Positions 1,548-45,116 are shown, counted from the stretch's first letter. The stretch: DNA of 64,000 nt from Candidatus Dojkabacteria bacterium (GCA_030583785.1 CP129475.1:1042209-1106208); one strand, 5' to 3'. The notes: a model not told the origin generated them from the letters alone. Made by a program: numbers and translations.

Positions 1548-1567
1548 AGATAGAGGATAACAATTAA

Positions 1568-1593
1568 GGTCATGGCGCAATTGCGCCATGACC
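1568..1593. promoter_or_regulatory. Perfect 26-bp inverted repeat GGTCATGGCGCAATTGCGCCATGACC in the divergent tdh / M20 intergenic region. Candidate operator or RNA hairpin.
   Basis: Read directly from the sequence. It has an 11-bp stem with a 4-nt centre and is GC-rich in an AT-rich spacer. Confidence 0.4.
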
Positions 1594-29208: not shown

Positions 29209-29904
29209 GTGAAATTTTGCGTAAACATGCTTAAAAAACTGCTTGCCGTAATCATTTTAATAATTATTCTTGCGGCTCTTGCGTTTTGGTCTCCTTGGCA
29301 GAAATGGGATTTGAGTTTTTCAAGACTGCTCGGGATTGATGCCAGAGAAGAGTTTGCTGCACTCAAGGTTAAATCATTAGCCGGGGATCTTGATGTATAT
29401 CTGGACGGAGAGCTTGTGGGTCAAGTTTCAGCAGAAGAGGACTTTCTAGAAGTATTTCCCATTGACCCTGGTGAGCATACAGTAAAACTAGTAAGAAATT
29501 CTACAATCTCTTATCCAGAAGTTATTAAGAAGCTGAACTTTGAGCCTGCAGTGGATGTGATTATCGGTTACGAGATTGGCCCAAATGAAGCCTTCTCAGA
29601 GGGGCATATCTTATATGCCAGAAGAAGTTATACAGCTAACGAAAATCCACTTCTAGAGATATATTCTGTACCAGAAGCTGTTCGGGTTCTATTAAATGGC
29701 GAAGAGATCGGACAGACACCTCTAAGAAGCATTTCTCTACCTTTAGACACAAAACATAAGCTTAGATTCGAAAAAGATGGATACGATTCTTTAGAAATCG
29801 AGATATTGCCCGACAATCAATCAGATAGAGAAAAACTTAAAAATACAGTCTTAACATTAGAGGTAAACTTATTTGCCCAGCCTATACCAATTGTTGAACA
29901 ATAA
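29209..29904 (+). CDS. Membrane-anchored PEGA-domain protein. The start may be the ATG at 29227.
   Basis: An N-terminal TM helix followed by two PEGA-like beta modules (YSVPEAVRVLLNGEEIGQTPL; DVYLDGELVGQVS). Confidence 0.55.
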   Translation: MKFCVNMLKKLLAVIILIIILAALAFWSPWQKWDLSFSRLLGIDAREEFAALKVKSLAGDLDVYLDGELVGQVSAEEDFLEVFPIDPGEHTVKLVRNSTISYPEVIKKLNFEPAVDVIIGYEIGPNEAFSEGHILYARRSYTANENPLLEIYSVPEAVRVLLNGEEIGQTPLRSISLPLDTKHKLRFEKDGYDSLEIEILPDNQSDREKLKNTVLTLEVNLFAQPIPIVEQ

Positions 29905-32900: not shown

Positions 32901-33020
32901 TTTAATCCTGAACTAGAGGTAAACCCCCAAAGCGTAGACTATTTAGAGCAGGGTGGTTCATTCATTTACTCCGGCGTCCTTAAAGGCGATTTAAGATTTA
33001 GATTTGATATTAAACAATAA
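29904..33020 (+). CDS. 1038-aa bitopic protein of unknown function. It has a degenerate Rossmann/epimerase-like cytoplasmic domain, a single TM near aa 430-455, and a ~580-aa extracytoplasmic domain.
   Basis: N-terminal LLVSGGDALGIEIAKSLLEQGGYVIIID is a GxGxxG-like Rossmann motif. The central hydrophobic helix is FALIIGGLIAFSILYFLIVSPIL. The large C-terminal region has no recognisable motifs. Confidence 0.6.
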   Translation: MSQKLNNTSKYPTSLLVSGGDALGIEIAKSLLEQGGYVIIIDNISQRAQEIYSQLGSYELLTLLDYDSIATLDDDLRRLDYVFYFKHQSSDLFESLSSQDFLQASNYLDAVLDLTTKFEAKFLLTTSIKAHQFAIESGETKKTNKYSDIEIQKYSEGLVEEYRDQVGIDARIVRLGELLGKGMDIAANTKLVKMMYQAINGEHLTLPGDGLESDYYVHYLDAAYGILKAQFSMNTRAKTFSLANDEEVTLLSIAYKLLELEPDAKEIIFNQNDNKLPPIKIYHPAPNLNTIGWKPRVSLERALVQSLDYMRIEQEKETKVPDAPSGDNQPEARIEKKGFLELIRGFFFVQTKQSKNESEEDQSIDGALQRLVQERKMQERMRKGSIVLANSKIRQRLKPQKQLTTLERFAKQLNKSFSSLKKHFYFLRNITLGDFALIIGGLIAFSILYFLIVSPILSLGRNIYFISTNSDGLVNALQAYDIDSATERAENINTNLAEAQLRLADINFLFGLLQQRDEYLQYQTLLADGKEYSAGLIDTLRALQPFSQLVKEFEPNVVYRISEGNLLAASPAPIMATLIEDINNNSAAIRIGVARMEKSKERLIAGIENSPDFLKQIIKPSIIDINGYYQNFSSLATSYEFMPKLLGRNSQKAYLLVVQDNARYTAGGGEIVGFIYFQVKDGSLAGISAIPISSNLNADLPLSSKAISSINLLSNKDVNSENALLSDVALIGNTDLRLQALKEIFMANENKPVDIIASVNLNLLEEFLRYRGAVEYQQVNFSDDNLLSGINLLMGSTQTKSNRDNIILNLYSKTIAREFNNLSDDFLNTVQIVAQARESGDLHLYSEEIDLKNYLIATSTSPSQASDRISFGLNYDQEKILINKYPIINISVIVDVNKDLSTSKQIIVSAAGTEGLQNIYVCNPNGSKNFTYPGVDPLLVTNTFSSDIFCTIFLEDDDIRYEMFFDTLTFENSSSTGYNYNLELVKNPGISANYDIEFRFNPELEVNPQSVDYLEQGGSFIYSGVLKGDLRFRFDIKQ

Positions 33021-33027
33021 ATAAACG

Positions 33028-33492
33028 ATGCAACCAAAATTATTACTTACACAAGAAGGGTTTGATGAGCTAGAAAAAGAGCTAAACGAAAGGATTAGCG
33101 TGACACGCAACAAGATTGCAGATGATATCGATCATGCTAGACAGCAGGGAGATCTTTCTGAAAACGCTGCCTATAAGGCAGCTATGGAGGCTAAGGAATT
33201 CAACGAAAATCGTATTGCTAAAATCGAAGACATGCTAAAGAATGCAGAAATTTCTGTTGCTTCTAAAGGCAAAAAGGTCGATATCGGAAAAACTGTCACT
33301 CTAGTAATTAAGGGGGACAGCAAACCTATAGAATTTCAAATTGTCGGCCACAGCGAAGCTGATCCAGCTCAAAGAAAAATCTCGCCAGAGTCTCCAATTG
33401 GTTCTGCTCTTATGGGTAAAAAAGAAGGAGACAAAGTTTTAGTAGAACTTCCTGCTGGCTCTGTTGAATATCTCATAAAAAAGGTAAACTAG
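33028..33492 (+). CDS. greA: Transcription elongation factor GreA
   Basis: LTQEGFDELEKELNE... coiled-coil plus FKBP-like C-terminal domain. Confidence 0.9.
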   Translation: MQPKLLLTQEGFDELEKELNERISVTRNKIADDIDHARQQGDLSENAAYKAAMEAKEFNENRIAKIEDMLKNAEISVASKGKKVDIGKTVTLVIKGDSKPIEFQIVGHSEADPAQRKISPESPIGSALMGKKEGDKVLVELPAGSVEYLIKKVN

Positions 33493-33519
33493 GATTAGTA
33501 AATAGAGTAACCAATACAA

Positions 33520-34758
33520 ATGGAACGACATTCTGTCCCACAGAACATCATGGATGTTGAATTCAAGTTGTTCGGATCGTTCACTATCAAACAATTTGCT
33601 TATCTTGCAGCAGGCTTCATTGGAGCCTTGGTTGTATTCGTGTCGCCATTTCCTGACTTACTAAAGATGATACTGTTGCCTATGAGCATGATTCTAGGCA
33701 TATTTCTTGGAGTAATAAAAATTAATGGCCAACCATCAAGTGTGTTCTTGAGTAATTTCATAGCAGCTCTTTTCTCATCTCAAACAAGAATTTGGCAAAA
33801 GAGCTCAAAGACACCAGAAATGCTTCAAGAAGCTAGGGCTGCAATTAACCCAAAAGATGTTGAGGTTTTACAAGTTGCTACAAAAACATTAAATCGAAGC
33901 TCTAAACTGATGCCACTGCAGAGTCTAGTTATTGAAGAAGAGAACGAACTAGATAAAGAGGAATCAGATCGTCTTGAACAGATTGAAAAGCATTTCAATT
34001 TTGCCGTTGGAGATCTAGAAAAGGAGACAATGAGAGCTGAAATTGAAACAAAAAAAGTAAGTCCTCCAAAGTTGCCATCTCCTCCAGATACAGCAATAGA
34101 GCAGCCTCCGATTTTTCATATTGATCCCGAAGCCGATAATTTGGCAGGATCTATTGCACATAAAGAATTACAAGGTGAGCCAATTTTAAGAACAAATAAA
34201 TATGCAACCATCTATAAACAGATGCAGTCGCAAACAAATAGACCAATTGTTGAGGAAACTTCACAGCCTAAAGCTGAAGAAATAGTACAAGAACAGTTAC
34301 CAGAGCAGGTACAAGGGCAGGTACAAGAGCAGGTAAAGGAACAAGAAGTTGTAACCGACTCGGTGACTAATGCAGATGCTCAAGTTCAGGCAGAGCCCTC
34401 AGTATCTGTAGAAACCGAGAATAAGGTGGAAAATAAAGAGGCAATTGTGACACAAGTTCAGACAAATATTCCAAGTCCACCACTTATTCCTCAGCACAGA
34501 AAACCAAATATTGTTGCTGGAATTGTTGTTGATAAGAACGACAAGCCTATTGCTCATGCCACCATCGAGTTTAAAGATGAGAGAGAACAACTTCTAAGAA
34601 AGGTCACGACAACAGTAAATGGTACATTTGGATTAAGTACCCCTCTTCCTAACGGAACATACCGGGTTGATATTAATGCTGAAGGCTTTAAGTTTAATCG
34701 TTTTGAGCTTATACTTTCAGGAACGGCATTGCCTAATTATAAATTTAAGGCCAAATAA
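33520..34758 (+). CDS. PrgI/VirB3-like two-TM conjugation/T4SS protein fused to a long low-complexity (Q/E/V-repeat) region and a C-terminal carboxypeptidase-regulatory-like beta-sandwich domain
   Basis: N-terminal VPQNIMDVEFKLFGSFTIKQFAYLAAGFIGALVV...MILLPMSMILGIFLGV matches the PrgI/TcpE/VirB3-like hairpin-TM pattern. A QVQGQVQEQVKEQ repeat follows. The C-terminal domain is IVAGIVVDKNDKPIAHATIEFKDE...VNGTFGL...GTYRVDINAEGF. Confidence 0.5.
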   Translation: MERHSVPQNIMDVEFKLFGSFTIKQFAYLAAGFIGALVVFVSPFPDLLKMILLPMSMILGIFLGVIKINGQPSSVFLSNFIAALFSSQTRIWQKSSKTPEMLQEARAAINPKDVEVLQVATKTLNRSSKLMPLQSLVIEEENELDKEESDRLEQIEKHFNFAVGDLEKETMRAEIETKKVSPPKLPSPPDTAIEQPPIFHIDPEADNLAGSIAHKELQGEPILRTNKYATIYKQMQSQTNRPIVEETSQPKAEEIVQEQLPEQVQGQVQEQVKEQEVVTDSVTNADAQVQAEPSVSVETENKVENKEAIVTQVQTNIPSPPLIPQHRKPNIVAGIVVDKNDKPIAHATIEFKDEREQLLRKVTTTVNGTFGLSTPLPNGTYRVDINAEGFKFNRFELILSGTALPNYKFKAK

Positions 34759-34763
34759 GATAG

Positions 34764-35480
34764 ATGGGACTTTTCACACAATCAACAGTTAGCACACAGG
34801 CTCATCTACCTATCGAAGATGTTAGAGATGACCTAGTTGTATTAAAGAATGGGAATGTATCTTTAGTACTAGAAACAACTGCACTTAACTTTGAACTCCT
34901 TTCAGAAAGAGAACAAGATGCCAAGATCCTATCTTTTGCAGGGTTACTAAATTCTCTTGGTTTCCAAATGCAGATTGTAATTATGACCGAAAGAACAGAC
35001 ATGTCAATATACATTGACAGGCTTAGAGCTTATAGGGAGTCACAAATATCAAATTCGTTGCGAAAACAGATCGATATTTACATGAGGTTCATCAATAATC
35101 TAACTATTAATACAGAGGTTTTAGATAAAAGGTTTTTTGTGATAATTCCAGAAATTGTTGCAGAAGTCCAAAGAACTAGTATGATCAAACAGCTATTTGG
35201 CAAACCTGTCAAGATCACAAATATTAGAAGTATTCTTGATAGAGCCAAAGCTAGGGTCTATCCAAAAAGAGACCATTTGATCAAGCAATTCCAAAAAATG
35301 GGTATTTCAGCGCGGCAATTAAATAACGAAGAATTGATTCGTTTGTACTACTCAATCTACGATCCAGATAAGGCGGGAGTTTCAAAGTTAGAGCTCAATC
35401 CATCAGAGATAACAACAGGAATGGTTGGCGCCCTCAAGACAGAGATAGAAGATAAACAATTATCAGAAGTAAAAAAATAA
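34764..35480 (+). CDS. Hypothetical protein between the VirB3-like and VirB4-like genes. It may be related to the VirB4 N-terminal domain.
   Basis: Tightly packed with its neighbours (6-nt and 1-nt gaps). The motif LVVLKNGNVSLVLETTALNFELLSEREQDAKILSFAGLLNSLGF...QIVIM resembles the early-partition region of TraC/VirB4 proteins. No catalytic motifs are present. Confidence 0.4.
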   Translation: MGLFTQSTVSTQAHLPIEDVRDDLVVLKNGNVSLVLETTALNFELLSEREQDAKILSFAGLLNSLGFQMQIVIMTERTDMSIYIDRLRAYRESQISNSLRKQIDIYMRFINNLTINTEVLDKRFFVIIPEIVAEVQRTSMIKQLFGKPVKITNIRSILDRAKARVYPKRDHLIKQFQKMGISARQLNNEELIRLYYSIYDPDKAGVSKLELNPSEITTGMVGALKTEIEDKQLSEVKK

Positions 35481-35481
35481 G

Positions 35482-37440
35482 ATGGGATTAATTCCTTTTA
35501 TCGGAAAAAAGAAAATACAGAAACCTGAAGTCCAAAACGGAAATTTGGCTCAGTCGACTGCATCTCAAGCAAAAAATCATACAAACTCTGTAAGTGTGCA
35601 AATGCAAGGTCAGCCGATAGCTCAAGAAAATAAAGCTGTACAAATGTTCTCTCAGGGCGTGCTGGATGTAAAGGATATAATTGCACCACCGGCTATTGAA
35701 ATTGACTTTAACCATCTTCTTGTAGGAGGAACTTACTTTCGAACTTTCTTTGCTACCGGATTTCCTAGATGGGTAGGCGCTAATTGGTTAGCACCACTGA
35801 TCAATTTTGAGAAACCTTTAACAATTAGTACATTCTATTATCCTGTGGATTCTGCGTTAATAATGCAAAGGTTAAAAAGAAAGATTGCAGAAATGCAGGC
35901 GACGCTAAATCTTGATATTGAGGCCGGAAAAATTCCTGATCCAAGCGTTAAAGTTGCGCTCAGAGACGCAGAAGATTTGCAGGATCAAATAGCCAGTGGC
36001 AACGAAAAGTTCTTCCACTTCGGCTTGTATGTTACTGCGAGAGCAAAGAATCTTAAAGAGCTTGAAAGAATATCCAGAAATGTAGAGTCAACTCTATCTG
36101 CCATTGGTGTTATTGTGAAAATTGCCTCACTTCAACAAGAAGAAGGGTTCATTACTTCTATGCCGTTAGCAGAAGATCGAATTCATTTGACCAGAAATAT
36201 GGATACGACTTCTCTGGCAACAACATTTCCTTTCGTCTCTTCAGAGCTCAGCATGGATGACGGCATTATGTATGGCGTAAACAAGCACAATAAAAGCCTT
36301 ATTGTCTTTGATCGCTTTCAGATGCCGAATGCAAATATGGTAATCTTTGCTACATCCGGAGCAGGAAAATCATACTTTGTTAAACTCGAGGCGATGCGAA
36401 GCCTTATGCTTGGAACCGATGTCATAATTATTGACCCTGAAAAAGAATACGAAAAGATGACCACCACAATAGGTGGAGAATATATTTCCTTCAGCCAGGA
36501 TGGAGATCAGAAACTTAATCCGTTCGAGTTATCAGGAATGTTTGATAAAGATGAAGACGAACTTCGTTTCAAGATTCTTTTCCTTCAGGGTTTAATAAAG
36601 ATTATGGTTGGTGGAAGTCTTAGCCCGATTGAAACGGCAATCTTAGATAGAGCTTTAATCCTTACCTACAAAGAAAAAGGTATTTCCCCTGATCCGGCAA
36701 CTCAAAGAAGAGAACCACCACTGCTAGAGGATCTTTATAAGGTACTCAATGCGATGGCCGAACCGGAAGCACATAATCTTGCTCAGCGACTTGAAAGGTA
36801 CCTTAAAGGTAGCGCAGCAGGTATCTTTGATAGAAGGTCAAATGTAGAAATCAAAAATACTTTTACGGTATTTAGTATTCGAGATCTGACCGATGAAATG
36901 CGACCTATCGCAATGGCAATGATGCTTGATTATATCTGGACTAGAGTTAAAAAAGATCGTCGACAAAGAATATTGATAATTGACGAGGCATGGTGGATGA
37001 TGCAGTATCCTGATGCTGCAAGATTCGTATATTCTGTTGCCAAAAGAGCTAGAAAATATGCACTTGGGCTTACTACGATCAGTCAGGATGTTGAAGATTT
37101 TCTTGATTCAGATTTTGGAAAAGCAGTAGTAACTAACTCGTCTATTCAAATCCTTCTTAAACAAAGTCCTGCAGCCGTTGATCGAATTAAAGAGGTATTC
37201 TACCTTTCAGATGGAGAGAGAGATTACTTGTTAAGTGCAGGGGTTGGAGAGGGATTATTCTTTGCAGGAAACAATCATGTTGCAATGCAGGTAATTGCCA
37301 GTGAGAACGAACATAATCTTATCACTACAAATCCAAAGGAGTTGCTTAAGAAAGAAGCAGAAGAAAAAGCGCTGGCTGGGCAGGCAGAGAATGCTCAACC
37401 GGCAAGGGCAGACTTAGCTTTAAATAGTAGCGAGCAATAA
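35482..37440 (+). CDS. VirB4/PrgJ/TrsE-family type IV secretion ATPase (Gram-positive conjugation type)
   Basis: Walker A FATSGAGKSY, Walker B RILIIDEAWWMM, and an N-terminal APPAIEIDFNHLLVGGTYFRTFFATGFPRWVGANWL block typical of TrsE/PrgJ/VirB4. Confidence 0.8.
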   Translation: MGLIPFIGKKKIQKPEVQNGNLAQSTASQAKNHTNSVSVQMQGQPIAQENKAVQMFSQGVLDVKDIIAPPAIEIDFNHLLVGGTYFRTFFATGFPRWVGANWLAPLINFEKPLTISTFYYPVDSALIMQRLKRKIAEMQATLNLDIEAGKIPDPSVKVALRDAEDLQDQIASGNEKFFHFGLYVTARAKNLKELERISRNVESTLSAIGVIVKIASLQQEEGFITSMPLAEDRIHLTRNMDTTSLATTFPFVSSELSMDDGIMYGVNKHNKSLIVFDRFQMPNANMVIFATSGAGKSYFVKLEAMRSLMLGTDVIIIDPEKEYEKMTTTIGGEYISFSQDGDQKLNPFELSGMFDKDEDELRFKILFLQGLIKIMVGGSLSPIETAILDRALILTYKEKGISPDPATQRREPPLLEDLYKVLNAMAEPEAHNLAQRLERYLKGSAAGIFDRRSNVEIKNTFTVFSIRDLTDEMRPIAMAMMLDYIWTRVKKDRRQRILIIDEAWWMMQYPDAARFVYSVAKRARKYALGLTTISQDVEDFLDSDFGKAVVTNSSIQILLKQSPAAVDRIKEVFYLSDGERDYLLSAGVGEGLFFAGNNHVAMQVIASENEHNLITTNPKELLKKEAEEKALAGQAENAQPARADLALNSSEQ

Positions 37441-38009
37441 TGGACCAATTATTTCAGCAAGAATTCACTTTTACTCTAACCGGAACCGCTCTTTTAGGAG
37501 TTGTTCTATTTTTTATCGTTGCATCGCTTGCATTGGTAATACTGATTTTCTCTTTGATTCGAAAAATTCAGTTATTGCAAAAACCAAAGTACGGTTTTCT
37601 TGGAAAACCTATCTTCTCTGTGCTTGCACTTGTTGGAATTGCTACCACAATGATCTATTTTAGCTACTCCTTCTCAAATCAACCGGATTTTCAAATCAGT
37701 GCGAATCGAACTGTTAATGCAAGTATAGAATACAGGCAGGTTGGAATTAGTGGCACAAAGAAACTTGTGGAATTTCAAGCAGTTCCAGTCGTAGATAATC
37801 GCGAGTATGGATTAAGCTCTGATCGCTTCGAGATTCTTTGGAGGGTAAATAATGTCGATGGAACAGAAAGAATTGAGTATGAACGAACTAAGAATAACCC
37901 CAGTGCCGTATATATTGAACTTGATCCAGGTTCGTATACAGTAAGTGCTATAATCGTTTTTGAGGGTAAATCATATCAGTTTGTTGAACCGGTTATAATA
38001 AATCCCTAA
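37440..38009 (+). CDS. Small two-TM protein with a beta-rich ectodomain, translationally coupled to the VirB4-like gene
   Basis: Its ATG overlaps the VirB4-like stop. N-terminal hydrophobic helices are followed by a soluble C-terminal domain. Confidence 0.5.
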   Translation: MDQLFQQEFTFTLTGTALLGVVLFFIVASLALVILIFSLIRKIQLLQKPKYGFLGKPIFSVLALVGIATTMIYFSYSFSNQPDFQISANRTVNASIEYRQVGISGTKKLVEFQAVPVVDNREYGLSSDRFEILWRVNNVDGTERIEYERTKNNPSAVYIELDPGSYTVSAIIVFEGKSYQFVEPVIINP

Positions 38010-38026: not shown

Positions 38027-38396
38027 TAATTATTGCACCAATTCAGGCAGCTGCGCATTCATTTATGAATGTGAGGAAAGTCCGGACTCCTTCGTTGGCA
38101 ACAGCGAAATGGGCACTGTGGAGACACAGGTGGGCGTGAGCTTACGGAATAAAGGGCAACAGAAAAGATACCGCCTCTTGTTTGAGGTAAGGTTGAAAAG
38201 GTGAGGTAAGAGCTCACCGGTCGACTTGGCAACAAGTCGATGCATTGTAACCCCTGCTCGGAGCAACCTGGCAAATTCAGGGCATCCTTAGGGAACCTTA
38301 GGTAATTACAGAAGCTTAGTAATTTCCGCAGGTAGAGAAATAGCTGTCTAGTTCAAGCAAAGCTTGAATCAAACAGAATCCGGCTTATGAATTGGT
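38027..38396 (+). ncRNA. rnpB: RNase P RNA (bacterial type A)
   Basis: P4 strands GAGGAAAGTCCGGACTCC and ACAGAATCCGGCTTAT are present. GGTAAGGTTGAAAAGGTGAGGTAAGAGCTCACC matches the conserved P10-P12 region. A P1 helix forms by ACCAATTCA/TGAATTGGT. The ORF-track ORFs at 38059-38274 (-) lie inside this RNA and are artifacts. Confidence 0.85.
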
Positions 38397-38403
38397 TAAA
38401 GAA

Positions 38404-38435
38404 AGAACCCGCTTTTAAAGCGGGTTCTTCGTTTT
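38404..38435. terminator. Bidirectional terminator hairpin (AGAACCCGC-loop-GCGGGTTCT + T-run) between rnpB and the convergent yugP-like gene
   Basis: A 9-bp stem with TTCGTTTT downstream and an A-run upstream. Confidence 0.6.
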
Positions 38436-39249: not shown

Positions 39250-39930
39250 ATGAAAAATCTATCTACCAAAACCGTGCTGTTTGCATCATTAATTATCGGT
39301 GTTTTGTTCCTTGCCGGTATTGTGCTTGCAGCAGGTAATCAAAAAGATTCGGGTCCTGCACCAACGCTTCCCATACTCCTCGAAGAGTTCAGCGACTTTC
39401 AGTGTCCTGCTTGCGGTGCTTACTTTGGACTCATCGAAGAAGTGCTTGATGAATATGGTTCAGATATTGAATTCGTCTACAAGCATTTTCCTCTAAGAAC
39501 AATCCATCCAAACGCTTTCGCTGCAGCAATTGCTTCAGAAGCAGCCAGAGAACAAGGTAAATTTATGGAGTACGCAGAAGAACTATTTGCCAACCAAAGA
39601 AACCTTGGAGATGAAACTTATGTAGCAATCGCAGCCAAACTCGAGCTAGATATAGACAAATTTGAAAGTGACCGTAAAAGTCCAGATATTATTGCCCGAG
39701 TTAATGCAGATATTGCAGACGGAAACTCAAGAGGTGTTAATGCAACACCAACTTTCTATATTGAAGGTAAAAAAGTTAATTTCGGAACAAGCGATCCTGC
39801 ACTTAAACTCAGAGAGCTTCTTGACGAACAAATCCGAAAGGCAAAAGAGGCTGTTAGTTATACAGATTCAATAACTCCAACCGAAGTAGATCAGCTAGGT
39901 GAAGAAGAATCCGTTGAAGATAATCAATAA
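39250..39930 (+). CDS. Membrane-anchored thioredoxin-fold thiol:disulfide oxidoreductase (DsbA-like)
   Basis: An N-terminal TM, the FSDFQCPACGAY CxxC active site, and a DsbA-family pattern. Confidence 0.75.
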   Translation: MKNLSTKTVLFASLIIGVLFLAGIVLAAGNQKDSGPAPTLPILLEEFSDFQCPACGAYFGLIEEVLDEYGSDIEFVYKHFPLRTIHPNAFAAAIASEAAREQGKFMEYAEELFANQRNLGDETYVAIAAKLELDIDKFESDRKSPDIIARVNADIADGNSRGVNATPTFYIEGKKVNFGTSDPALKLRELLDEQIRKAKEAVSYTDSITPTEVDQLGEEESVEDNQ

Positions 39931-39932
39931 AA

Positions 39933-40493
39933 ATGAATGTATATTTTGCGGCATCAACTCGCAACTTAAGTCAAAACAGAACAAAGTTTGTTAAGCTTTT
40001 AGAAGTGTTTAAAGAGCTTGGTCATGTCGTACTTCCTTCGTGGATAGTAGAAAAACTTTACAGTAAAGAATCTTCAGATAAAAGACCTCAAGAGCTGGTT
40101 CTAGATAATACACAACTTGTTCAGGAATCTGATCTTGTTGTTATAGACTTAAGTACTCCGTCTTTTGGAGTAGGCTATCTTTTTGGACAGGCACTGGCAA
40201 ATCATAGACCTATACTCTGCTTGTATCCAGAAACAGTTTCTTTGGAGAGTATTTCGGAAATTGTAAAAGGCTCCACTTCTTCGCTTGTTACGCTCAAGTC
40301 TTATTCGGAAAGCAATGTCCGTGATATAATCAGGGACTATTTAGCAGGAATGAGTTTAGATTCTCTTCGCAAGTTCAATTTTATTGCATCCGAAGAAATC
40401 ATGAGATTCATAGAAGATGGATCAGTCAAAGAAGGTAAATCTAAATCCGAATTCTTGCGAGATAAAATACTTAATGAATTGATTACAAAATAA
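39933..40493 (+). CDS. 2'-deoxynucleoside 5'-phosphate N-hydrolase (DNPH1/Rcl)-like protein of the nucleoside 2-deoxyribosyltransferase superfamily, with the catalytic Glu apparently replaced
   Basis: VYFAASTRNLSQNR...DLVVIDLSTPSFGVGYLFGQALANHRPILCLY aligns with DNPH1 IYFCGSIRGGR...DVVVAEVTQPSLGVGYELGRAVAFNKRILCLF. The GYELG nucleophile Glu is Leu here (GYLFG). Confidence 0.6.
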   Translation: MNVYFAASTRNLSQNRTKFVKLLEVFKELGHVVLPSWIVEKLYSKESSDKRPQELVLDNTQLVQESDLVVIDLSTPSFGVGYLFGQALANHRPILCLYPETVSLESISEIVKGSTSSLVTLKSYSESNVRDIIRDYLAGMSLDSLRKFNFIASEEIMRFIEDGSVKEGKSKSEFLRDKILNELITK

Positions 40494-40517
40494 TATCTGC
40501 CCGATATTTTTTTTGAT

Positions 40518-41327
40518 ATGGAACGGGCAACTTCGCAATACCCAAAAATTGATCTAGGTTTGGTCAACGCTTCTTCAAATAGACAGCTAATGATATTACC
40601 ACGGGAAATTAAGCCAGAACCAGCTTTTGAACAAACTAGAGGCAATGCAATAGTTAGATTGAGTGGCAATATTATTGATTATGAACTATCTGGACTCCCC
40701 TATAGAGATCATCCTTTTTATGGATATCAGCCTGCTTGGGGAGAGTTCCGCGAATTTGTTCTAGCAGGGTGTCTCTTTAATGGAATTCATCTCGTGTGTA
40801 ATCTTGCTGATCGAATTCATGTGGACAGAATGAACCATTTTATCGAAGATGGTGCAAAAGCAGATATTGAATATAATTTCTCAATACCTCAACAAGGTTT
40901 CCCCTTTGAGCCTGAATATATGTCTTTGCGAGTAATAACATATCCAGAAGGTATTGTTCGTGAGTATCATGGTGATGGAGGTAAAGTATTCGTTTCTTTG
41001 TTGGATACTTTTAACATTGTGCGCTATTATCATGCCGTTAATGAGATCGCTTCAGATGGAGCAGAGATTATTATTGATGAATTTATAGGTCCAGCAGGTT
41101 TTACGACCACTTCAGAATTCAGGGCGATTCTTGAGGAAGCCGGTTTCGAAATTGTAGAAGAAGCTAGATATCTCCAAGATGAAGAAGTACCAGAACAGAT
41201 AAGGGATAAAAATTGTCAACCTAGATATGGTGCCATTGCTCGAATCGTCTGCCGAAGACCTCAAGATGACGATGATGTAGATGATTACTCAACCATTCCA
41301 GATGGTGGAATTGGTGTTTTTGCCTAG
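40518..41327 (+). CDS. Hypothetical protein, a paralog of the next gene. Acidic C-terminus.
   Basis: Shares a C-terminal block with 41403..42167 (IIIDEFIGPAGFTTTSEFRAILEEAGFEI versus SISSEDFIGPGGYSSREQCLQLFRNAGFTC). No other motif was recognised. Confidence 0.45.
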   Translation: MERATSQYPKIDLGLVNASSNRQLMILPREIKPEPAFEQTRGNAIVRLSGNIIDYELSGLPYRDHPFYGYQPAWGEFREFVLAGCLFNGIHLVCNLADRIHVDRMNHFIEDGAKADIEYNFSIPQQGFPFEPEYMSLRVITYPEGIVREYHGDGGKVFVSLLDTFNIVRYYHAVNEIASDGAEIIIDEFIGPAGFTTTSEFRAILEEAGFEIVEEARYLQDEEVPEQIRDKNCQPRYGAIARIVCRRPQDDDDVDDYSTIPDGGIGVFA

Positions 41328-41402
41328 AAAATTTTCTTGACCAAGATTTATATACAGGATATAATACCCATTACTTTTTATGGCGCCATGGCGCAATGAA
41401 TA

Positions 41403-42167
41403 GTGGCTGGTGTAGCAACATTAGAAACAAGTGTCGATAATCTCACGGACTACCTAAGGTATCACTCGGGGAAAGAAGTTATCTTGTCAATTGGTTGTGG
41501 TAGAGAAATAACAACACCTAGACATTTTGACCCGAAAAACCAAGTATTAATCGGAATGGATCCACAATTGGACTACCATGATGCAGATGGATCTATAATA
41601 GGAATAAAGGATGGTTATTGTCATGTTGATCGTAGACTTAATATACCATCTCGTATTGCTGATAGAGTTGAGACTCATGCAACCATTGCTTACATTGCGT
41701 CTTATCCTCTGGATCCCTTTTCGTCGAATAGCTATTCTATGGAAATTTTTGAGGAAATTCGATCATTAGATAATAATGGTCTTTACCGAGAGTCTAGAAC
41801 AAGATATAACACTAGCAGGATATACGATATTCAAGGTATGCAGGTCGTCTATCAGCGAAGCGTTATGACAGGTAACGATCAATGGAGAGTTATTGACGCT
41901 TCTCATATGATTAATTGGACTCGAGAGCTTGCAAGAATAATTAAGCATGGTGGTTCAATCTCAAGCGAGGATTTTATTGGACCTGGAGGTTATTCATCGC
42001 GAGAACAGTGTCTACAATTATTTAGAAATGCTGGGTTTACTTGTCCGACATTGAGGGAAATAAGGGATCCTCAACAATCTGCTTCTCAGACAATAAGGGA
42101 TAACCAAATTGAAGGAAACGGTTATGGTCAACCCGTTAGCATTTCAGCTAGAGTATTCCATCCTTAG
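41403..42167 (+). CDS. Hypothetical protein with a divergent class I SAM-methyltransferase-like pattern
   Basis: VILSIGCGRE (motif I-like), an acidic VLIGMDPQ (motif II-like), and a C-terminal HGGSISSEDFIGPGG...AGF region. Confidence 0.4.
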   Translation: MAGVATLETSVDNLTDYLRYHSGKEVILSIGCGREITTPRHFDPKNQVLIGMDPQLDYHDADGSIIGIKDGYCHVDRRLNIPSRIADRVETHATIAYIASYPLDPFSSNSYSMEIFEEIRSLDNNGLYRESRTRYNTSRIYDIQGMQVVYQRSVMTGNDQWRVIDASHMINWTRELARIIKHGGSISSEDFIGPGGYSSREQCLQLFRNAGFTCPTLREIRDPQQSASQTIRDNQIEGNGYGQPVSISARVFHP

Positions 42168-42176
42168 TTCAATTTG

Positions 42177-45116
42177 CTAGTTTCTTACCAGAACTGCCTT
42201 ACCGTTGGCTACATCGGCTTCAACCTTTTTGTACTTGACATCTTTTTTAACGGTACCGTCGCTGTAGCGCACAGTAACCTTATCGTTGCGACCTATTTGA
42301 GTCTGTTTATCTTTTTTGACTGTGGCTTGTGTTTTTCCAAGCGTTTTGGCCTGTTCTTGCAGCTCTTTTCCCTTATGAAGCAAATCGGTAAGTCTGGCAG
42401 TCATCTCTCTGGTTCCTGTGTTTACATCTGAGACTTCGTCTTCGTTTGTTCTGATTTGCACTTGGGGCATTTGTCTGGCAACTCTTTGAATCTTGAGAAT
42501 TCTTCTGGCAATTTGATTATTAATTGCTCCAATAAACCTTTCGAAAAGAATGAAAGCTTCGTTCTTGTATTCAACCAAAGGATCCTTTTGAGCATAACTT
42601 CGTAAACTGATTCCTTCTCGTAGGTCTCCAATGGCATTAAGATGTTCTGTCCACAACTCGTCCATGCTTTGCAGGGCGGTTATTCTGTAGATTTCCGGAA
42701 GCGATGCTGCAAACTCTTTGACTTTTTCGTCAAGGATTACGCGAATAATTTTGCTTAAGGCATCTATAATCTCTTCTGGCCCAAGTTTTTCTAGAATAGA
42801 GACAAGCTTATCTGTTGGGGTATTTTGGAGGGCATCTTTATAGGTTACTTTGATGGCTTTGTCTATCAGATTGTCGTCTGCGAGATCCAAGAAGTCTTTG
42901 ATTAGTTGTTTATGATCGAATTCATCGCTTTCTGCTGCAAAGAAATGCTTTTTGACAATTGCTTCAATTTCGTCAACAAGAATTTTGTCGATGTCTGTTT
43001 TTATTTCGGATAACATTTCGACCTTTGTATCTTCGCTATCTGCTTTAACTGCCATTTCTGCTTTTCGCAGGATGTTGTATCTGCGGGTATAGAAGATTTC
43101 GCGCTGTTGATTCATTACATTGTCGTAGTCGACAAGTCGTTTTCGTACATCAAAATTGTGACCTTCCATCTTTTTTTGAGCAGATTCGATTGTTCTGCTG
43201 ATGATTGGATTTTGGATTGGAATGTCGTCTGGAATCTTTGTCGCATTCATGATTTTTTGCACAATCTCACCACCTTGAATGCGCATGATTTCGTCGTTAA
43301 GTGCCACAAAGAATTGCGTTGTTCCCGGTTGTCCTTGTCTTCCGCCTCGACCTCTAAGCTGGTTGTCAATTCTTCTGGCTTCGTGTCGTTGTGCACCAAT
43401 TATGTAAAGTCCGCCAAGCTCTTCTACGCCTTTTCCAAGTGGAATATCTGTTCCTCGACCTGCCATATTTGTGGCAACTGTAACTGCGCTCATTGCACCG
43501 GCTTTGGCTACGATTTGAGCTTCTCGTTCGTGATACTTGGCATTGAGAACCTCGTGTGTGATTGCTTTTTTATCGAGTAATCCAGATAAGTATTCAGAAT
43601 CTTCTATTGAGGCTGTTCCGACAAGAATAGGCCTTTTTGTTTTGTTTATGGTAATGATTTCTTCGACGATTGCTTTAAACTTTGCTTCTCTATCTTTGTA
43701 GATTTTATCCTGCTTGTCTGAGCGTACTACGGGCTTATTTGTTGGAATTGCGTAGGACTCTAAATTGAAGATTTTGGCAAATTCTTCTGCTTCGGTAATG
43801 ATTGTTCCTGAACCTCCGGCAAGCACTTTGTAAAGCTTAAAGAAGTTCTGGAAAGTGATAGTTGCCATGGTTCTTGAAGCTCGTTTGATTTCGACACCTT
43901 CTTTAGCTTCTATCGCTTGATGAAGTCCTTCTGAGTAGCGTCTACCTGGCAGTACTCTTCCGGTGAATTCATCTACAATAAGGACTTCGCCATTGTCTAC
44001 TATGTATTCGTCATCAATCTTATAGAGGACTTCTGCCTTGAGTGCATTGTCTAGGTGGTGAGCATTTTGGTAATCTTCCCACAGGTTAGTTACACCGAGT
44101 AGTTGTTCTGCGTAAGCAACGCCTTCTTCGTTAAGAGTTACTGATCTTGTTTTCTCGTCTACATCGTAGTGCTTATCTTTAGTAAGCTTTTTCACCATGC
44201 GTGCAAACTTTTCGTATAAATCATTTGATTGCTCAGCAGGTGCTGAAATAATTAAGGGAGTTCTGGCTTCGTCTATTAGAATTGAGTCTGCCTCGTCGAC
44301 AATTACAAAATATAGCTCTTTTTGAACTCTATCTGCTGTGTTGTAGGCCATATTGTCGCGCAGATAGTCAAAACCGAATTCGTTGTTGGTTCCATAGACG
44401 ACATCGCAAGAGTAGGCATCTTCTTTAGAGCAGGTGATAAGATTAACGCCTTTCATGTCTGCCAGTTCGGCAATATTTATACCTTTTCTTTCTTCGGCTG
44501 CTTCTTTACCCTTTACGGATTCTAATTCGCTGTCTGGAACAAATTTATATGATGATTGCGGAGTGATAATACCGACGCTAATACCTAGGTCAGCCATTGC
44601 GTGTCCTGCGTATTCACCGTCTCTACGGGCAAGATAATCGTTAACTGTAATTACATGAGAACCTCTGCCGGTAAGTCCATAAAGTGCTGCTGGCAAATGA
44701 AATACCTGAGTTTTTCCTTCTCCTGTTTTAAGTTCTGCAAGTTTATTGCCTTGTGCCAAAATAACTGAAGCGATTAACTGTACTCGAAAATGGGGTTTCC
44801 CGAATTTTCGTCTATTTACTTCTCGAAGAATTGAAAATAGCTGAGGTATGTGCTTTTGAAGCTCTGCCACAACTTCTGATTCAAGAGATTTGTACTTTTC
44901 TTTATTGTCTTGGCTAAGAGCTGTTCTGGCTTCTTCGGGGATCTTATCGAGGATCGGTTGAATGGATTTTCTGATATCCGTAACTTTGGCTCGCAGGTCT
45001 TCGAGAGATAGATTTTTAAGTTCTTCTTCGAGAGTAAAAATTGAATCAACAACCGGAGTAGCCTCGCGAATTGCTGCCTCGGCAGGGTCGAACATTTTTT
45101 TTAAGAAACTAAGCAT
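42177..45116 (-). CDS. secA: Preprotein translocase ATPase SecA (979 aa) with an atypical Lys-rich C-terminal tail lacking the Cys-rich zinc finger
   Basis: DEAD motor motifs, PPXD and HWD regions, and the start MLSFLKKMFDP. The C-terminus is ...VTVRYSDGTVKKDVKYKKVEADVANGKAVLVRN. Confidence 0.97.
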   Translation of the reverse strand: MLSFLKKMFDPAEAAIREATPVVDSIFTLEEELKNLSLEDLRAKVTDIRKSIQPILDKIPEEARTALSQDNKEKYKSLESEVVAELQKHIPQLFSILREVNRRKFGKPHFRVQLIASVILAQGNKLAELKTGEGKTQVFHLPAALYGLTGRGSHVITVNDYLARRDGEYAGHAMADLGISVGIITPQSSYKFVPDSELESVKGKEAAEERKGINIAELADMKGVNLITCSKEDAYSCDVVYGTNNEFGFDYLRDNMAYNTADRVQKELYFVIVDEADSILIDEARTPLIISAPAEQSNDLYEKFARMVKKLTKDKHYDVDEKTRSVTLNEEGVAYAEQLLGVTNLWEDYQNAHHLDNALKAEVLYKIDDEYIVDNGEVLIVDEFTGRVLPGRRYSEGLHQAIEAKEGVEIKRASRTMATITFQNFFKLYKVLAGGSGTIITEAEEFAKIFNLESYAIPTNKPVVRSDKQDKIYKDREAKFKAIVEEIITINKTKRPILVGTASIEDSEYLSGLLDKKAITHEVLNAKYHEREAQIVAKAGAMSAVTVATNMAGRGTDIPLGKGVEELGGLYIIGAQRHEARRIDNQLRGRGGRQGQPGTTQFFVALNDEIMRIQGGEIVQKIMNATKIPDDIPIQNPIISRTIESAQKKMEGHNFDVRKRLVDYDNVMNQQREIFYTRRYNILRKAEMAVKADSEDTKVEMLSEIKTDIDKILVDEIEAIVKKHFFAAESDEFDHKQLIKDFLDLADDNLIDKAIKVTYKDALQNTPTDKLVSILEKLGPEEIIDALSKIIRVILDEKVKEFAASLPEIYRITALQSMDELWTEHLNAIGDLREGISLRSYAQKDPLVEYKNEAFILFERFIGAINNQIARRILKIQRVARQMPQVQIRTNEDEVSDVNTGTREMTARLTDLLHKGKELQEQAKTLGKTQATVKKDKQTQIGRNDKVTVRYSDGTVKKDVKYKKVEADVANGKAVLVRN

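What the first reader, a model, noticed from the sequence alone, without database searches (positions are those of the whole stretch)
39933..42167. Uncharacterized three-gene cassette: DNPH1/Rcl-like protein lacking the catalytic glutamate plus two paralogous methyltransferase-like proteins
The 186-aa protein aligns convincingly with 2'-deoxynucleoside 5'-phosphate N-hydrolase family members (phosphate-binding loop, SxGVGYxxG motif). The nucleophilic Glu of the GYELG motif is Leu here (GYLFG). This suggests a non-hydrolytic nucleotide-binding or altered-chemistry role. It overlaps the stop of the upstream DsbA-like gene by spacing of 2 nt. Two mutually homologous proteins follow (shared C-terminal DEFIGP.G...AGF block). 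One shows class-I SAM-MTase-like motifs (SIGCGRE / LIGMDPQ). Local composition looks somewhat GC-richer than the ribosomal region. This needs computing and was not verified. The combination (nucleotide-sugar/nucleotide binding module plus duplicated MTase-like proteins) is not a pathway I recognise. It could be a nucleotide- or nucleic-acid-modification or defence-related module.
Basis: partly seen in the sequence, partly recalled or inferred. Interest (0 to 1): 0.7.

Follow-up and report, generated by a model that had tools for sequence, protein, structure and literature searches.

The report
Dead DNPH1-like sensor fused to DNA-binding domain
The 186-aa protein is most likely not an enzyme but a nucleotide-sensing gene regulator (a catalytically dead DNPH1-like domain fused to a ribbon-helix-helix DNA-binding domain); it appears to control, through a conserved 16-bp DNA site, a strain-variable slot of accessory genes that includes the two methyltransferase-like proteins.

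Summary
The ORFs, the DNPH1 similarity, the Glu-to-Leu change and the weak paralogy of the two downstream proteins are all real. The higher-GC claim is not.

The window is from a Candidatus Dojkabacteria (CPR) genome.

**Protein A (39933-40493).** It has a DNPH1 fold but lacks the nucleophile Glu in every homolog, and the general-acid Asp as well. It keeps the phosphate-binding Ser.

**Candidate operator.** Two tandem 8-bp boxes (TKGCGCMA x2) lie between a promoter and gene C. The same motif lies next to A homologs in most other loci. A metagenome search with the motif alone recovered distant A homologs inside nucleotide-metabolism operons headed by the motif.

**Proteins B and C.** They belong to a tiny Dojkabacteria-only family. 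C models as a class I SAM-methyltransferase fold. B-type members lack the SAM-binding motifs.

**Not a fixed cassette.** A is coupled to DsbA in a conserved housekeeping backbone. The genes between A and SecA vary between species. In sibling strains gene C is replaced by an unrelated 88-aa ORF.

**Best reading.** A is a nucleotide-responsive repressor controlling a swappable cargo slot. DNA and ligand binding are inferred, not shown.

The parts
39250..39930 (+). DsbA-like thioredoxin-fold protein with an N-terminal membrane anchor. It is tightly coupled to A (2-nt spacer).
   Evidence: Pfam Thioredoxin_4 E=2.8e-19 and DSBA E=1.5e-17. DsbA sits immediately upstream of the A homolog in L001/L011, L007, L009, L012, L013, L014 and L137.
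39933..40352 (+). Protein A, N-terminal domain (aa 1-140). It has a DNPH1/nucleoside 2-deoxyribosyltransferase fold and is catalytically dead. It is the predicted nucleoside-5'-phosphate sensor.
   Evidence: PDB phmmer E=4e-10 to DNPH1. Foldseek TMt 0.77-0.87. Glu104->L83, Asp80->N59, Glu55/His56->P35/S36, Tyr24->Y4 (Y/F in the family). The Ser98 equivalent S77 is invariant, and the Ser128 equivalent S108 is invariant in the Dojkabacteria group.
40353..40493 (+). Protein A, C-terminal domain (aa ~141-186). It is ribbon-helix-helix-like: 'LRKFNFIAS' is the putative strand, followed by helix 1 and then 'GKSKSEFLRDKI', the N-cap of helix 2. It is the most conserved part of the family.
   Evidence: L145, K147, F148, N149, F150, S172, L175 and R176 are invariant down to 25% overall identity. 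Pfam RHH_1 is hit by 14 of 17 members (best E=4.7e-4) and NikA-like by 13 of 17 (best E=1.2e-4). AF2 gives two helices at 154-167 and 171-184. The strand region is modelled as helix at low confidence (pLDDT 59).
40518..41327 (+). Protein B, a B-type member of the B/C family. It has the MTase-like C-terminal half, no glycine-rich motif I, no acidic post-I residue, and an acidic C-terminal tail. It is probably co-transcribed with DsbA and A (24-nt gap, no terminator predicted).
   Evidence: The only hit among 5.8 billion clusters is an identical copy.
41337..41365 (+). Promoter-like site TTGACC-17-TATAAT (11 of 12 consensus positions), upstream of gene C.
   Evidence: It lies in the sequence shared with the sibling strains.
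41381..41396 (.). Candidate operator TGGCGCCA-TGGCGCAA: two tandem 8-bp pseudo-palindromic boxes with consensus TKGCGCMA. It lies 15 nt after the -10 box and 6 nt before the GTG of C. Its right end is the left breakpoint of the strain-level swap.
   Evidence: There are 2 sites in the window against 0.13 expected. The same motif lies next to A homologs in L001, L007, L008, L009, L013, L014, L015, L016 and L137. A motif-only metagenome scan recovered A-like genes.
41403..42167 (+). Protein C, a C-type member of the B/C family. It has a divergent class I SAM-methyltransferase fold with a partial motif I (IGCGRE) and a post-I Asp (GMDPQ).
41398..42180 (.). Strain-variable segment. In four contigs of the same species (flanks 99.5-99.97% identical) these 783 bp are replaced by an unrelated 290 bp encoding an 88-aa ORF.
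1568..1593 (.). Second operator-like site in the window: a perfect 26-nt palindrome GGTCATGGCGCAATTGCGCCATGACC (core 1573-1588). It lies 26 nt upstream of the likely true start (ATG at 1547) of a minus-strand NAD-dependent epimerase/dehydratase gene.

Best explanation
**What protein A is.** Protein A is a one-component transcription regulator, not a hydrolase. Its N-terminal domain is a DNPH1/NDT-fold module. That module has lost the catalytic machinery but keeps the phosphate-binding serine. It therefore probably binds a nucleoside 5'-monophosphate-type ligand without cleaving it. Its C-terminal domain is a ribbon-helix-helix DNA-binding module.

**How it likely works.** DNPH1 domains and RHH domains both function as dimers, so ligand binding at the DNPH1-like dimer interface could set the geometry or affinity of the RHH dimers. 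The predicted target is a 16-bp operator made of two tandem 8-bp pseudo-palindromic boxes (TKGCGCMA-TKGCGCMA). By my recollection this arrangement resembles the MetJ met-box; it was not tested here. The operator sits at or just after the transcription start of the regulated genes, which is a repressor position.

**What it controls in this window.** The operator controls the gene slot between B and SecA. That slot holds gene C here and an unrelated 88-aa ORF in sibling strains. A second site controls an epimerase gene at 1.5 kb.

**What B and C are.** They are cargo, not pathway partners of A. They belong to a small, fast-evolving Dojkabacteria-specific family with a class I methyltransferase fold. 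C-type members may still bind SAM. B-type members probably cannot.

**Shown versus inferred.**
- Shown: the fold, the residue losses, the domain conservation, the motif and its co-occurrence with A, the synteny and the strain swap.
- Inferred: DNA binding by A, the identity of the ligand, the direction of regulation, and any enzymatic activity of C.
For: **(1) Dead active site with a conserved binding site**
- In DNPH1 alignments E104->L83, D80->N59, E55/H56->P35/S36.
- The Glu column is L/I/Q/C/F/V and never acidic in 19+11 homologs. S77 (=S98) is invariant.
- Residue roles come from PMC10603095.

**(2) RHH-like C-terminal domain**
- KFNF and S..LR are invariant at 25% overall identity.
- There are consistent sub-threshold hits to RHH_1, NikA-like, SeqA_N, TacA1 and HicB antitoxin.
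- The alignment to Arc and CopG is in the RHH register.

**(3) The motif**
- The window has 2 sites against 0.13 expected.
- It lies after a strong promoter-like site.
- It sits inside the promoter spacer in L014 and directly after the -10 box in L076 and L137.

**(4) Motif-A linkage from the protein side**
- The motif lies within 13-2113 nt of the A homolog in 9 of 11 distinct loci. These include the non-syntenic L008 and L015.

**(5) Motif-A linkage from the DNA side**
- A metagenome scan with the motif alone gave mostly high-GC noise.
- Three low-GC loci (L076, L099, L110) also encode distant A homologs: 27-31% identity by tblastn, same two-domain architecture, Glu->Q.
- In L076 the motif heads a same-strand gene string: Ham1, aminotransferase, ThyA-like, P-loop kinase, dCTP-deaminase-like, QueC-like, Ham1, A-like, PfkB.
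- L099 holds largely the same gene set.
- L026 shows the motif 12 nt from the start of a Ham1-like gene.

**(6) The periodic box is conserved, not a hairpin**
- Sites in L008 and L015 are direct repeats that cannot fold back.

**(7) B/C-family genes follow the motif in five lineages**
- These are window C, L016 (P0023), L013 (P0024), L007 (261 aa) and L137 (P0028).
Against: - There is no direct evidence that A binds DNA or any nucleotide.
- RHH assignment rests on sub-threshold profile hits. AF2 modelled the putative strand as low-confidence helix, and a profile search of PDB found no RHH.
- The hhalign probabilities against Arc and CopG are low (10% and 30%).
- Many motif-A co-occurrences are in syntenic loci and are not independent events.
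- Two A-homolog loci (L010, L012) have no dimeric site within the DNA held.
- In L076 and L099 the perfect site is ~5.7 kb from the A-like gene.
- Another regulator could bind the motif.
- S108 (=S128') is not conserved in the most distant homologs.
Confidence: 0.55

Rival explanations
1. A is still an enzyme of the DNPH1/NDT superfamily with altered chemistry, using a different nucleophile or a substrate-assisted mechanism. In this reading B and C methylate its product or substrate, giving a three-enzyme nucleotide-modification pathway.
For: - A has the DNPH1 fold and keeps the phosphate-binding Ser.
- C has a methyltransferase fold.
- A and B/C-family genes recur in the same region.
- Distant A-like genes sit in nucleotide-metabolism operons.
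Against: - No acidic or other candidate nucleophile is invariant in the N-terminal domain.
- The best-conserved part of A is the non-catalytic C-terminal domain.
- B/C genes are absent next to A in L001 and L009, and C is dispensable in sibling strains.
- In L013 an opposite-strand ABC exporter separates A from the C-like gene.
- B-type members lack the SAM motifs.
Confidence: 0.1
2. A is a nucleotide-binding protein whose C-terminal domain serves oligomerisation or protein binding (antitoxin-like) rather than operator binding. The TKGCGCMA motif belongs to another regulator, or is a general promoter-proximal element of Dojkabacteria.
For: - The RHH evidence is sub-threshold and no strand is modelled.
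- A second motif site lies 38 kb from A.
- Syntenic loci inflate the co-occurrence count.
Against: - The motif-only search recovered distant A homologs in non-syntenic operons.
- The putative DNA-reading strand KFNF is invariant wherever the motif is invariant.
- No toxin-like partner gene is conserved next to A.
Confidence: 0.2
3. The motif acts at the RNA level, as a 5'-UTR hairpin controlling translation or stability, independently of A.
For: - The motif lies 4-26 nt upstream of start codons, where a Shine-Dalgarno sequence would be.
- Inverted versions such as UGGCGCAAUUGCGCCA could form a 6-7 bp GC-rich hairpin.
Against: - Several sites are direct repeats with no hairpin potential: L008 GCGCCATTGCGCCA and L015 TGGCGCAATGGCGTAA.
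- In L014 the motif lies in the promoter spacer, upstream of the transcript.
- What is conserved is the 8-bp periodicity.
Confidence: 0.08
4. B and C are decaying or spurious ORFs, lineage-specific junk in a recombination hotspot with no function.
For: - They are nearly orphans in 5.8 billion and 1.84 billion protein sets.
- C is replaced in sibling strains.
Against: - Full-length homologs at 25-49% identity exist in other Dojkabacteria, with conserved blocks.
- A confident MTase-fold model was obtained from only 6 sequences.
- Codon usage is native.
- C has its own promoter.
Confidence: 0.07

Closest known systems
DNPH1 / Rcl (2'-deoxynucleoside 5'-phosphate N-hydrolase; 5-hydroxymethyl-dUMP N-hydrolase) and the Pfam PF05014 nucleoside 2-deoxyribosyltransferase family
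   Same: - Same fold: Foldseek TMt 0.77-0.87 and E=1e-9.
- Sequence similarity at E=4e-10.
- It shares the P-S-x-G-V-G-Y loop with the phosphate-binding Ser.
- A dimeric enzyme family is the likely template.
   Different: - The nucleophile Glu104, the general acid Asp80 and Glu55/His56 are all replaced.
- Tyr24 is only partly kept.
- An extra ~45-aa C-terminal RHH-like domain is present.
- The Pfam score is just below the gathering threshold (28.4 vs 28.8).
- Public annotation as 'nucleoside 2-deoxyribosyltransferase' is probably a misnomer.
MetJ-type ribbon-helix-helix repressors (MetJ, Arc, Mnt, CopG, NikR)
   Same: - It has the RHH sequence pattern: a strand with alternating polar residues, then helix 1, then a G-x-S-K-S-E-F-L-R helix-2 N-cap.
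- The candidate operator is built of tandem 8-bp palindromic boxes, like met-boxes.
- It would be a small-molecule-dependent regulator. MetJ uses SAM, and NikR uses Ni through a fused domain.
- The comparison rests on established knowledge.
   Different: - The sensor domain is a DNPH1/NDT fold, which I have not seen described for RHH regulators. No paper in the library combines the terms.
- The RHH is C-terminal.
- DNA binding is untested.
SLOG / TIR / deoxyribohydrolase-fold sensor domains in nucleotide-signalling systems (Burroughs et al. 2015, as cited in PMC7159879)
   Same: A related Rossmann-like fold is used to bind, not cleave, a nucleotide-derived ligand. Catalytically inactive versions act as sensors.
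   Different: - Those sensors are coupled to effectors in conflict or defence systems.
- Here the output is an RHH domain in a housekeeping neighbourhood.
- There are no PADLOC hits.
Class I SAM-dependent methyltransferases (Methyltransf_11/23/25-like small-molecule MTases, e.g. BH2331 1vl5, Coq5 4obw, CmoA 4gek)
   Same: - C has motif-I-like IGCG, a post-I Asp, and the block 'hGG.h...DF.G' followed by 'AGF'.
   Different: - Identity is 12-19% and no Pfam or NCBIfam family reaches threshold.
- About 100 residues lie outside the common core, including an extra beta-rich insert (aa ~129-164).
- B-type paralogs lack the SAM-binding motifs altogether.

Membership tests
DNPH1 / nucleoside 2-deoxyribosyltransferase (PF05014) enzymes | Rossmann-like NDT/DNPH1 fold | tested here: met
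   AF2 pLDDT 88. Foldseek top 50 hits are all DNPH1/Rcl, with TMt 0.77-0.87.
DNPH1 / nucleoside 2-deoxyribosyltransferase (PF05014) enzymes | Pfam gathering score reached | tested here: not met
   28.4 bits against a cut-off of 28.8. The distant homolog L099 scores 28.6. The shortfall is marginal.
DNPH1 / nucleoside 2-deoxyribosyltransferase (PF05014) enzymes | Catalytic nucleophile Glu (human E104, GYELG) | tested here: not met
   It is Leu83 in the window protein. The column reads L/I/Q/C/F/V in all 22 homologs examined, and no shifted acidic residue is conserved.
DNPH1 / nucleoside 2-deoxyribosyltransferase (PF05014) enzymes | General acid Asp (D80) and Glu55/His56 | tested here: not met
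   D80 aligns with N59, and E55/H56 with P35/S36. Roles are from PMC10603095.
DNPH1 / nucleoside 2-deoxyribosyltransferase (PF05014) enzymes | Phosphate-coordinating Ser (S98; S128' from the partner subunit) | tested here: met
   S77 is invariant in all homologs. S108 is invariant in the 19 Dojkabacteria homologs but is Pro in two distant ones.
Ribbon-helix-helix (CopG/Arc/MetJ) DNA-binding domains | Significant profile match to RHH families | tested here: inconclusive
   RHH_1 is hit by 14 of 17 members (best E=4.7e-4) and NikA-like by 13 of 17 (best E=1.2e-4), all below gathering scores. hhalign versus CopG and Arc gives P=5.6e-4 and 3e-3 in the correct register, but probabilities of only 30% and 10%. 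A PDB profile search found no RHH.
Ribbon-helix-helix (CopG/Arc/MetJ) DNA-binding domains | Strand-helix-helix secondary structure forming an intertwined dimer | tested here: inconclusive
   The monomer AF2 model gives the two helices (154-167, 171-184). The putative strand 145-152 is modelled as helix at pLDDT ~59. A dimer could not be modelled with these tools.
Ribbon-helix-helix (CopG/Arc/MetJ) DNA-binding domains | Cognate operator of tandem or inverted repeats near the regulated promoter | tested here: met
   A TKGCGCMA x2 motif lies at promoters next to A homologs, and the reverse search recovers A homologs. Binding itself was not tested.
Ribbon-helix-helix (CopG/Arc/MetJ) DNA-binding domains | Sequence-specific DNA binding | not testable with these tools
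   This needs EMSA, DAP-seq or a structure.
Class I SAM-dependent methyltransferases | Seven-stranded Rossmann-like MTase fold | tested here: met
   [not shown]
Class I SAM-dependent methyltransferases | Motif I glycine-rich loop (E/DxGxGxG) and an acidic residue after strand 2 | tested here: inconclusive
   C-type members have IGCGRE / IGCGRN / FGTGYT and MDPQ / MDPQ / IDPN, which is partial. B-type members have LPREIK / QPHTNGE / RPHTEGE and no acidic residue, so the feature is not met for B.
Class I SAM-dependent methyltransferases | Family-level profile match | tested here: not met
   The best Pfam hit is Methyltransf_23 at E=0.052, 13.7 bits against a cut-off of 27. NCBIfam gives nothing.
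Known anti-phage defence systems (PADLOC) / phage families (PHROGs) | Profile match of any of A, B, C or the 88-aa ORF | tested here: not met
   There are no PADLOC hits at E<=1. PHROG hits are only insignificant.

The most novel reading that the evidence does not exclude
A previously undescribed family of one-component regulators in CPR bacteria. A catalytically dead DNPH1 domain senses a non-canonical (deoxy)nucleoside monophosphate. DNPH1's natural substrate is 5-hydroxymethyl-dUMP, and distant family members sit in operons with ThyA-like, dCTP-deaminase-like, kinase, QueC-like and Ham1 genes. An RHH domain then represses met-box-like TKGCGCMA operators. The regulator would control both nucleotide-modification operons and a promoter-plus-operator 'docking slot' whose cargo genes are exchanged between strains.
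Probability: 0.35. Interest if true: 0.7.

Novelty: new variant of a known kind. Interest (0 to 1): 0.55.

Why it matters
- **New sensor module.** If correct, this adds a ligand-sensor module, a dead DNPH1/NDT fold, to the repertoire of bacterial one-component regulators.
- **A rare CPR regulon.** It provides one of the few predicted regulator-operator-regulon sets for the uncultured Candidate Phyla Radiation.
- **Annotation correction.** It corrects a database annotation. These proteins are labelled 'nucleoside 2-deoxyribosyltransferase' but cannot use the family's mechanism.
- **A swappable cargo slot.** It documents a conserved promoter-plus-operator followed by cargo genes that are swapped between strains. 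This is a simple way for reduced genomes to keep accessory genes under one nucleotide-responsive switch.
- **Directly testable.** The hypothesis can be tested with one purified 186-aa protein and a 16-bp DNA probe.

Tried and rejected
- **GC or codon anomaly.** A, B and C have native composition.
- **Defence or phage origin.** There are no PADLOC or PHROG matches.
- **Conserved operator upstream of DsbA.** The alignment of five Zn-peptidase/DsbA intergenic regions showed nothing convincing.
- **RHH via PDB profile search.** Only designed proteins appeared, at E>0.1.
- **Word-indexed homolog searches for B and C.** They returned only near-identical (99-100%) copies. The full HMMER scan for C gave only three real relatives.
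- **Isoprenoid or cytokinin link.** MVD-like and GHMP kinase genes follow A in L001, IspH and UppS neighbour it in L008, and MiaA in L010. DNPH1 also crystallises with N6-isopentenyl-AMP. I considered this but did not pursue it. The neighbours differ in every locus and no test was available.
- **afdb50 fold search for the A architecture outside Dojkabacteria.** The library was unavailable.
- **Metagenome motif scan.** About 95% of the hits are chance matches in high-GC DNA or 8-mer microsatellites.
Full report
**Source and layout**

The window comes from a Candidatus Dojkabacteria (WS6, Candidate Phyla Radiation) genome. The 186-aa protein is 100% identical to an NCBI entry from that phylum on a 1.17-Mb contig.

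- DsbA-like, 39250-39930
- A, 39933-40493
- B, 40518-41327
- C, 41403-42167
- SecA on the opposite strand, from 42177

The 2-nt DsbA/A spacer is real.

The suggested higher GC is not real. A, B and C have GC 0.357, 0.395 and 0.392 and GC3 0.25-0.28. The window mean is 0.382 +/- 0.023 for GC and 0.297 +/- 0.041 for GC3. The only local GC bump falls on the block holding the RNase P RNA gene at 38038-38399 and the Zn-peptidase gene.

**Protein A, N-terminal domain**

The similarity to DNPH1/Rcl is solid:
- phmmer against PDB sequences gives E=4e-10 over residues 3-136.
- An AlphaFold model built on 19 homologs has pLDDT 88.
- Its 50 best Foldseek matches in the PDB are all DNPH1/Rcl, with TMt 0.77-0.87.
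- Pfam PF05014 scores 28.4 bits, just under the 28.8 cut-off.

According to PMC10603095, the following residues matter in human DNPH1:
- Y24, D80 and E104 form the catalytic triad.
- E55 and H56 assist catalysis.
- S98 and S128' (from the partner subunit) hold the phosphate.

The HMMER alignments pair these residues with A as follows:

| DNPH1 residue | Residue in A |
|---|---|
| E104 | L83 |
| D80 | N59 |
| E55 / H56 | P35 / S36 |
| Y24 | Y4 |
| S98 | S77 |
| S128 | S108 |

In an alignment of 19 Dojkabacteria homologs (43-64% identity) the Glu column reads L, I, Q, C or F. With more distant homologs added (25-40% identity) it also reads V and Q. It is never acidic, and no acidic residue of this domain is invariant, so there is no shifted Glu. 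S77 is invariant throughout. S108 is invariant in the closer group.

This is a family-wide loss of the catalytic apparatus with the phosphate site retained.

Residues ~141-186 are absent from DNPH1 and are the best-conserved part of the family. L145, K147, F148, N149, F150, S172, L175 and R176 are invariant even at 25% overall identity.

The pattern 'LRKFNFIAS - helix - GKSKSEFLRDKI' is that of a ribbon-helix-helix domain. The supporting evidence is consistent but sub-threshold:
- 14 of 17 members hit Pfam RHH_1 (best E=4.7e-4).
- 13 of 17 hit the RHH family NikA-like (best E=1.2e-4).
- Single members hit other RHH families.
Arc 'QFNLRW' pairs with 'KFNFIA'. The hhalign probabilities are low (30% and 10%).

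The monomer model gives the two helices but draws the putative strand as low-confidence helix. A PDB profile search was uninformative. I rate RHH membership as probable, not proven.

**A conserved operator-like motif**

Directly upstream of gene C lies a strong promoter-like site, TTGACC-17-TATAAT, at 41337-41365. Fifteen nucleotides further on lies TGGCGCCATGGCGCAA, at 41381-41396.

The motif is best described as two tandem 8-bp pseudo-palindromic boxes, TKGCGCMA-TKGCGCMA. The 64-kb window has two sites with up to 2 mismatches, against 0.13 expected. The second site is a perfect 26-nt palindrome at 1568-1593. It lies 26 nt upstream of the probable true start of an NAD-dependent epimerase/dehydratase gene.

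The same motif occurs next to A homologs in other Dojkabacteria whose intergenic DNA is otherwise unalignable:
- L001/L011: two sites, 13 and 53 nt after A
- L007: 70 nt after A
- L015: 55 nt after A
- L008: two sites, 42-83 nt before A
- L014: 833 nt after A, inside the spacer of TTGACA-18-TATAAT
- L137: directly after the TATAAT of a TTGACG-18-TATAAT promoter-like site that follows A
- L009 and L013: about 2 kb after A, 10-20 nt from start codons

L010 and L012 have none.

Some sites are inverted repeats and others are direct repeats (L008, L015). What is conserved is therefore the 8-bp box periodicity, not a hairpin.

**Reverse test of the motif-A link**

I scanned the metagenome collection with ATKGCGCMATKGCGCMAT alone. 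Most of the 120 hits are chance matches in high-GC DNA or microsatellites.

However, three low-GC loci (L076, L099, L110) also encode distant A homologs (tblastn E=1e-14 to 3e-26). These share the two-domain architecture, with 'PSSSVGFQVG' (Glu->Q) and 'KFNFII...SKSDFLRE'. Given how rare the family is (20 clusters among 5.8 billion), this cannot be coincidence.

In L076 the motif follows TTGACA-17-TATATT and precedes, by 4 nt, the first gene of a same-strand gene string. The string runs: Ham1-like, aminotransferase, thymidylate-synthase-like, P-loop kinase, dCTP-deaminase-like, QueC-like, a second Ham1-like, the A-like gene, and a PfkB kinase.

L099 carries largely the same gene set next to a large serine recombinase. 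L026 shows the motif 12 nt from the start of another Ham1-like gene.

This is the classical picture of an autoregulated operon. It also places the dead DNPH1-like sensor among enzymes that make or clean up non-canonical nucleotides.

**The 'cassette' is not a fixed unit**

The backbone is conserved in five other lineages. It runs: VirB4-like, hypothetical, RNase P RNA, Zn-peptidase (-), DsbA, A, [slot], SecA (-), sortase (-). DsbA is adjacent to A in seven lineages.

The slot content differs between lineages:

| Locus | Slot content |
|---|---|
| Window | B + C |
| L001 | small ORF + MVD-like + GHMP kinase |
| L007 | B-type gene + 245-aa ORF |
| L009 | 75-aa ORF, then (-) CYTH + 236-aa ORF |
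| L013 | (-) ABC exporter, C-type gene, Cys-rich 148-aa ORF |
| L137 | 75-aa ORF, B-type gene, Cys-rich 144-aa ORF |

Four contigs of the same species have flanks 99.5-99.97% identical to the window. In them, window 41398-42180, which is exactly gene C, is replaced by an unrelated 290 bp encoding an 88-aa ORF. The left junction falls immediately after the motif.

The promoter plus operator is therefore kept while the cargo is exchanged.

**Proteins B and C**

They are real paralogs, but distant ones (E=3e-6 over 89 aa). The L007 261-aa protein bridges them.

The family is tiny. An exhaustive HMMER scan of 1.84 billion representatives with C found only P0023 (49%), P0024 (37%) and P0028 (25%).

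Two subtypes exist:
- C-type members have IGCGR-like and MDPQ-like motifs.
- B-type members have no glycine-rich loop and no post-I acidic residue, and carry an acidic tail.

C is thus a divergent MTase-fold protein of unknown substrate. B is probably a non-catalytic relative.

B/C-family genes lie behind the motif in five lineages: window C, L016, L013, L007 and L137.

**Conclusion**

A is a nucleotide-sensing RHH repressor built on a dead DNPH1 scaffold. It is encoded with DsbA in a conserved backbone. It controls, through TKGCGCMA x2 operators, a strain-variable accessory slot and, in relatives, nucleotide-metabolism operons.

Fold, residue losses, motif statistics, co-occurrence, synteny and strain variation are shown. 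DNA binding, the ligand and repression are inferred.

I found no description of a DNPH1/NDT-RHH fusion in the literature library. I class it as a new variant of a known kind: a one-component RHH regulator with a new sensor domain.

Noticed in passing
window 41398-42180 vs L002:6881-7170 (also L003-L005): Strain-level replacement of gene C by an unrelated 290-bp segment encoding an 88-aa acidic ORF. The breakpoints are sharp, right after the operator-like motif and at the SecA stop codon. The 88-aa ORF is weakly similar (E=0.01) to the small ORF that follows the motif in L001.
   Followed up: partly
L076:1513-8677, L099:545-6847, L026:1552-2141: Motif-headed gene clusters, of unknown organism, for non-canonical nucleotide metabolism: two Ham1-like, aminotransferase, ThyA-like, P-loop kinase, dCTP-deaminase-like, one or two QueC-like, PfkB and NUDIX genes. 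In L099 the cluster lies next to a large serine recombinase. It may be a DNA or nucleotide hypermodification pathway on an integrative element.
   Followed up: partly
window 38038-38399 (+): Bacterial class A RNase P RNA (166 bits). A strong terminator-like hairpin follows at 38403-38429. It lies in the 38-39 kb block that shows the local GC rise.
   Followed up: yes
window 606-1589 (-) and L001:6581-6934, L099:6274-6840: ORF starts called at an ATG inside the palindromic motif ('MAQLR...') are probably artefacts. The likely true starts lie 14-25 codons downstream, for example ATG at window 1547.
   Followed up: partly
window ~29900-38009 (+) and L001/L002/L007 upstream regions: A conserved type IV secretion/conjugation-like cluster (PrgI-like, TraC-like, VirB4/TraG-like ATPase at 35482-37440) lies just upstream of the locus in several Dojkabacteria.
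   Followed up: no
L013:9482-9928 and L137:4804-5238: A Cys-rich ~145-aa protein family without Pfam hits recurs as the last gene of the motif-controlled slot, next to B/C-family genes.
   Followed up: no
L009:7160-8421 (-): The motif-preceded pair in this species is a 236-aa unknown protein plus a CYTH-domain protein (triphosphate tunnel metalloenzyme). This is another nucleotide-related candidate regulon member.
   Followed up: no
L136:100-330, L077:7600-7700, L027:100-200, L047:1800-1900: Tandem 8-nt microsatellites (GGCGCAAT/GGCACAAT-like) in unrelated low-GC contigs match the motif pattern by chance. They are a source of false positives for any future motif scan.
   Followed up: yes
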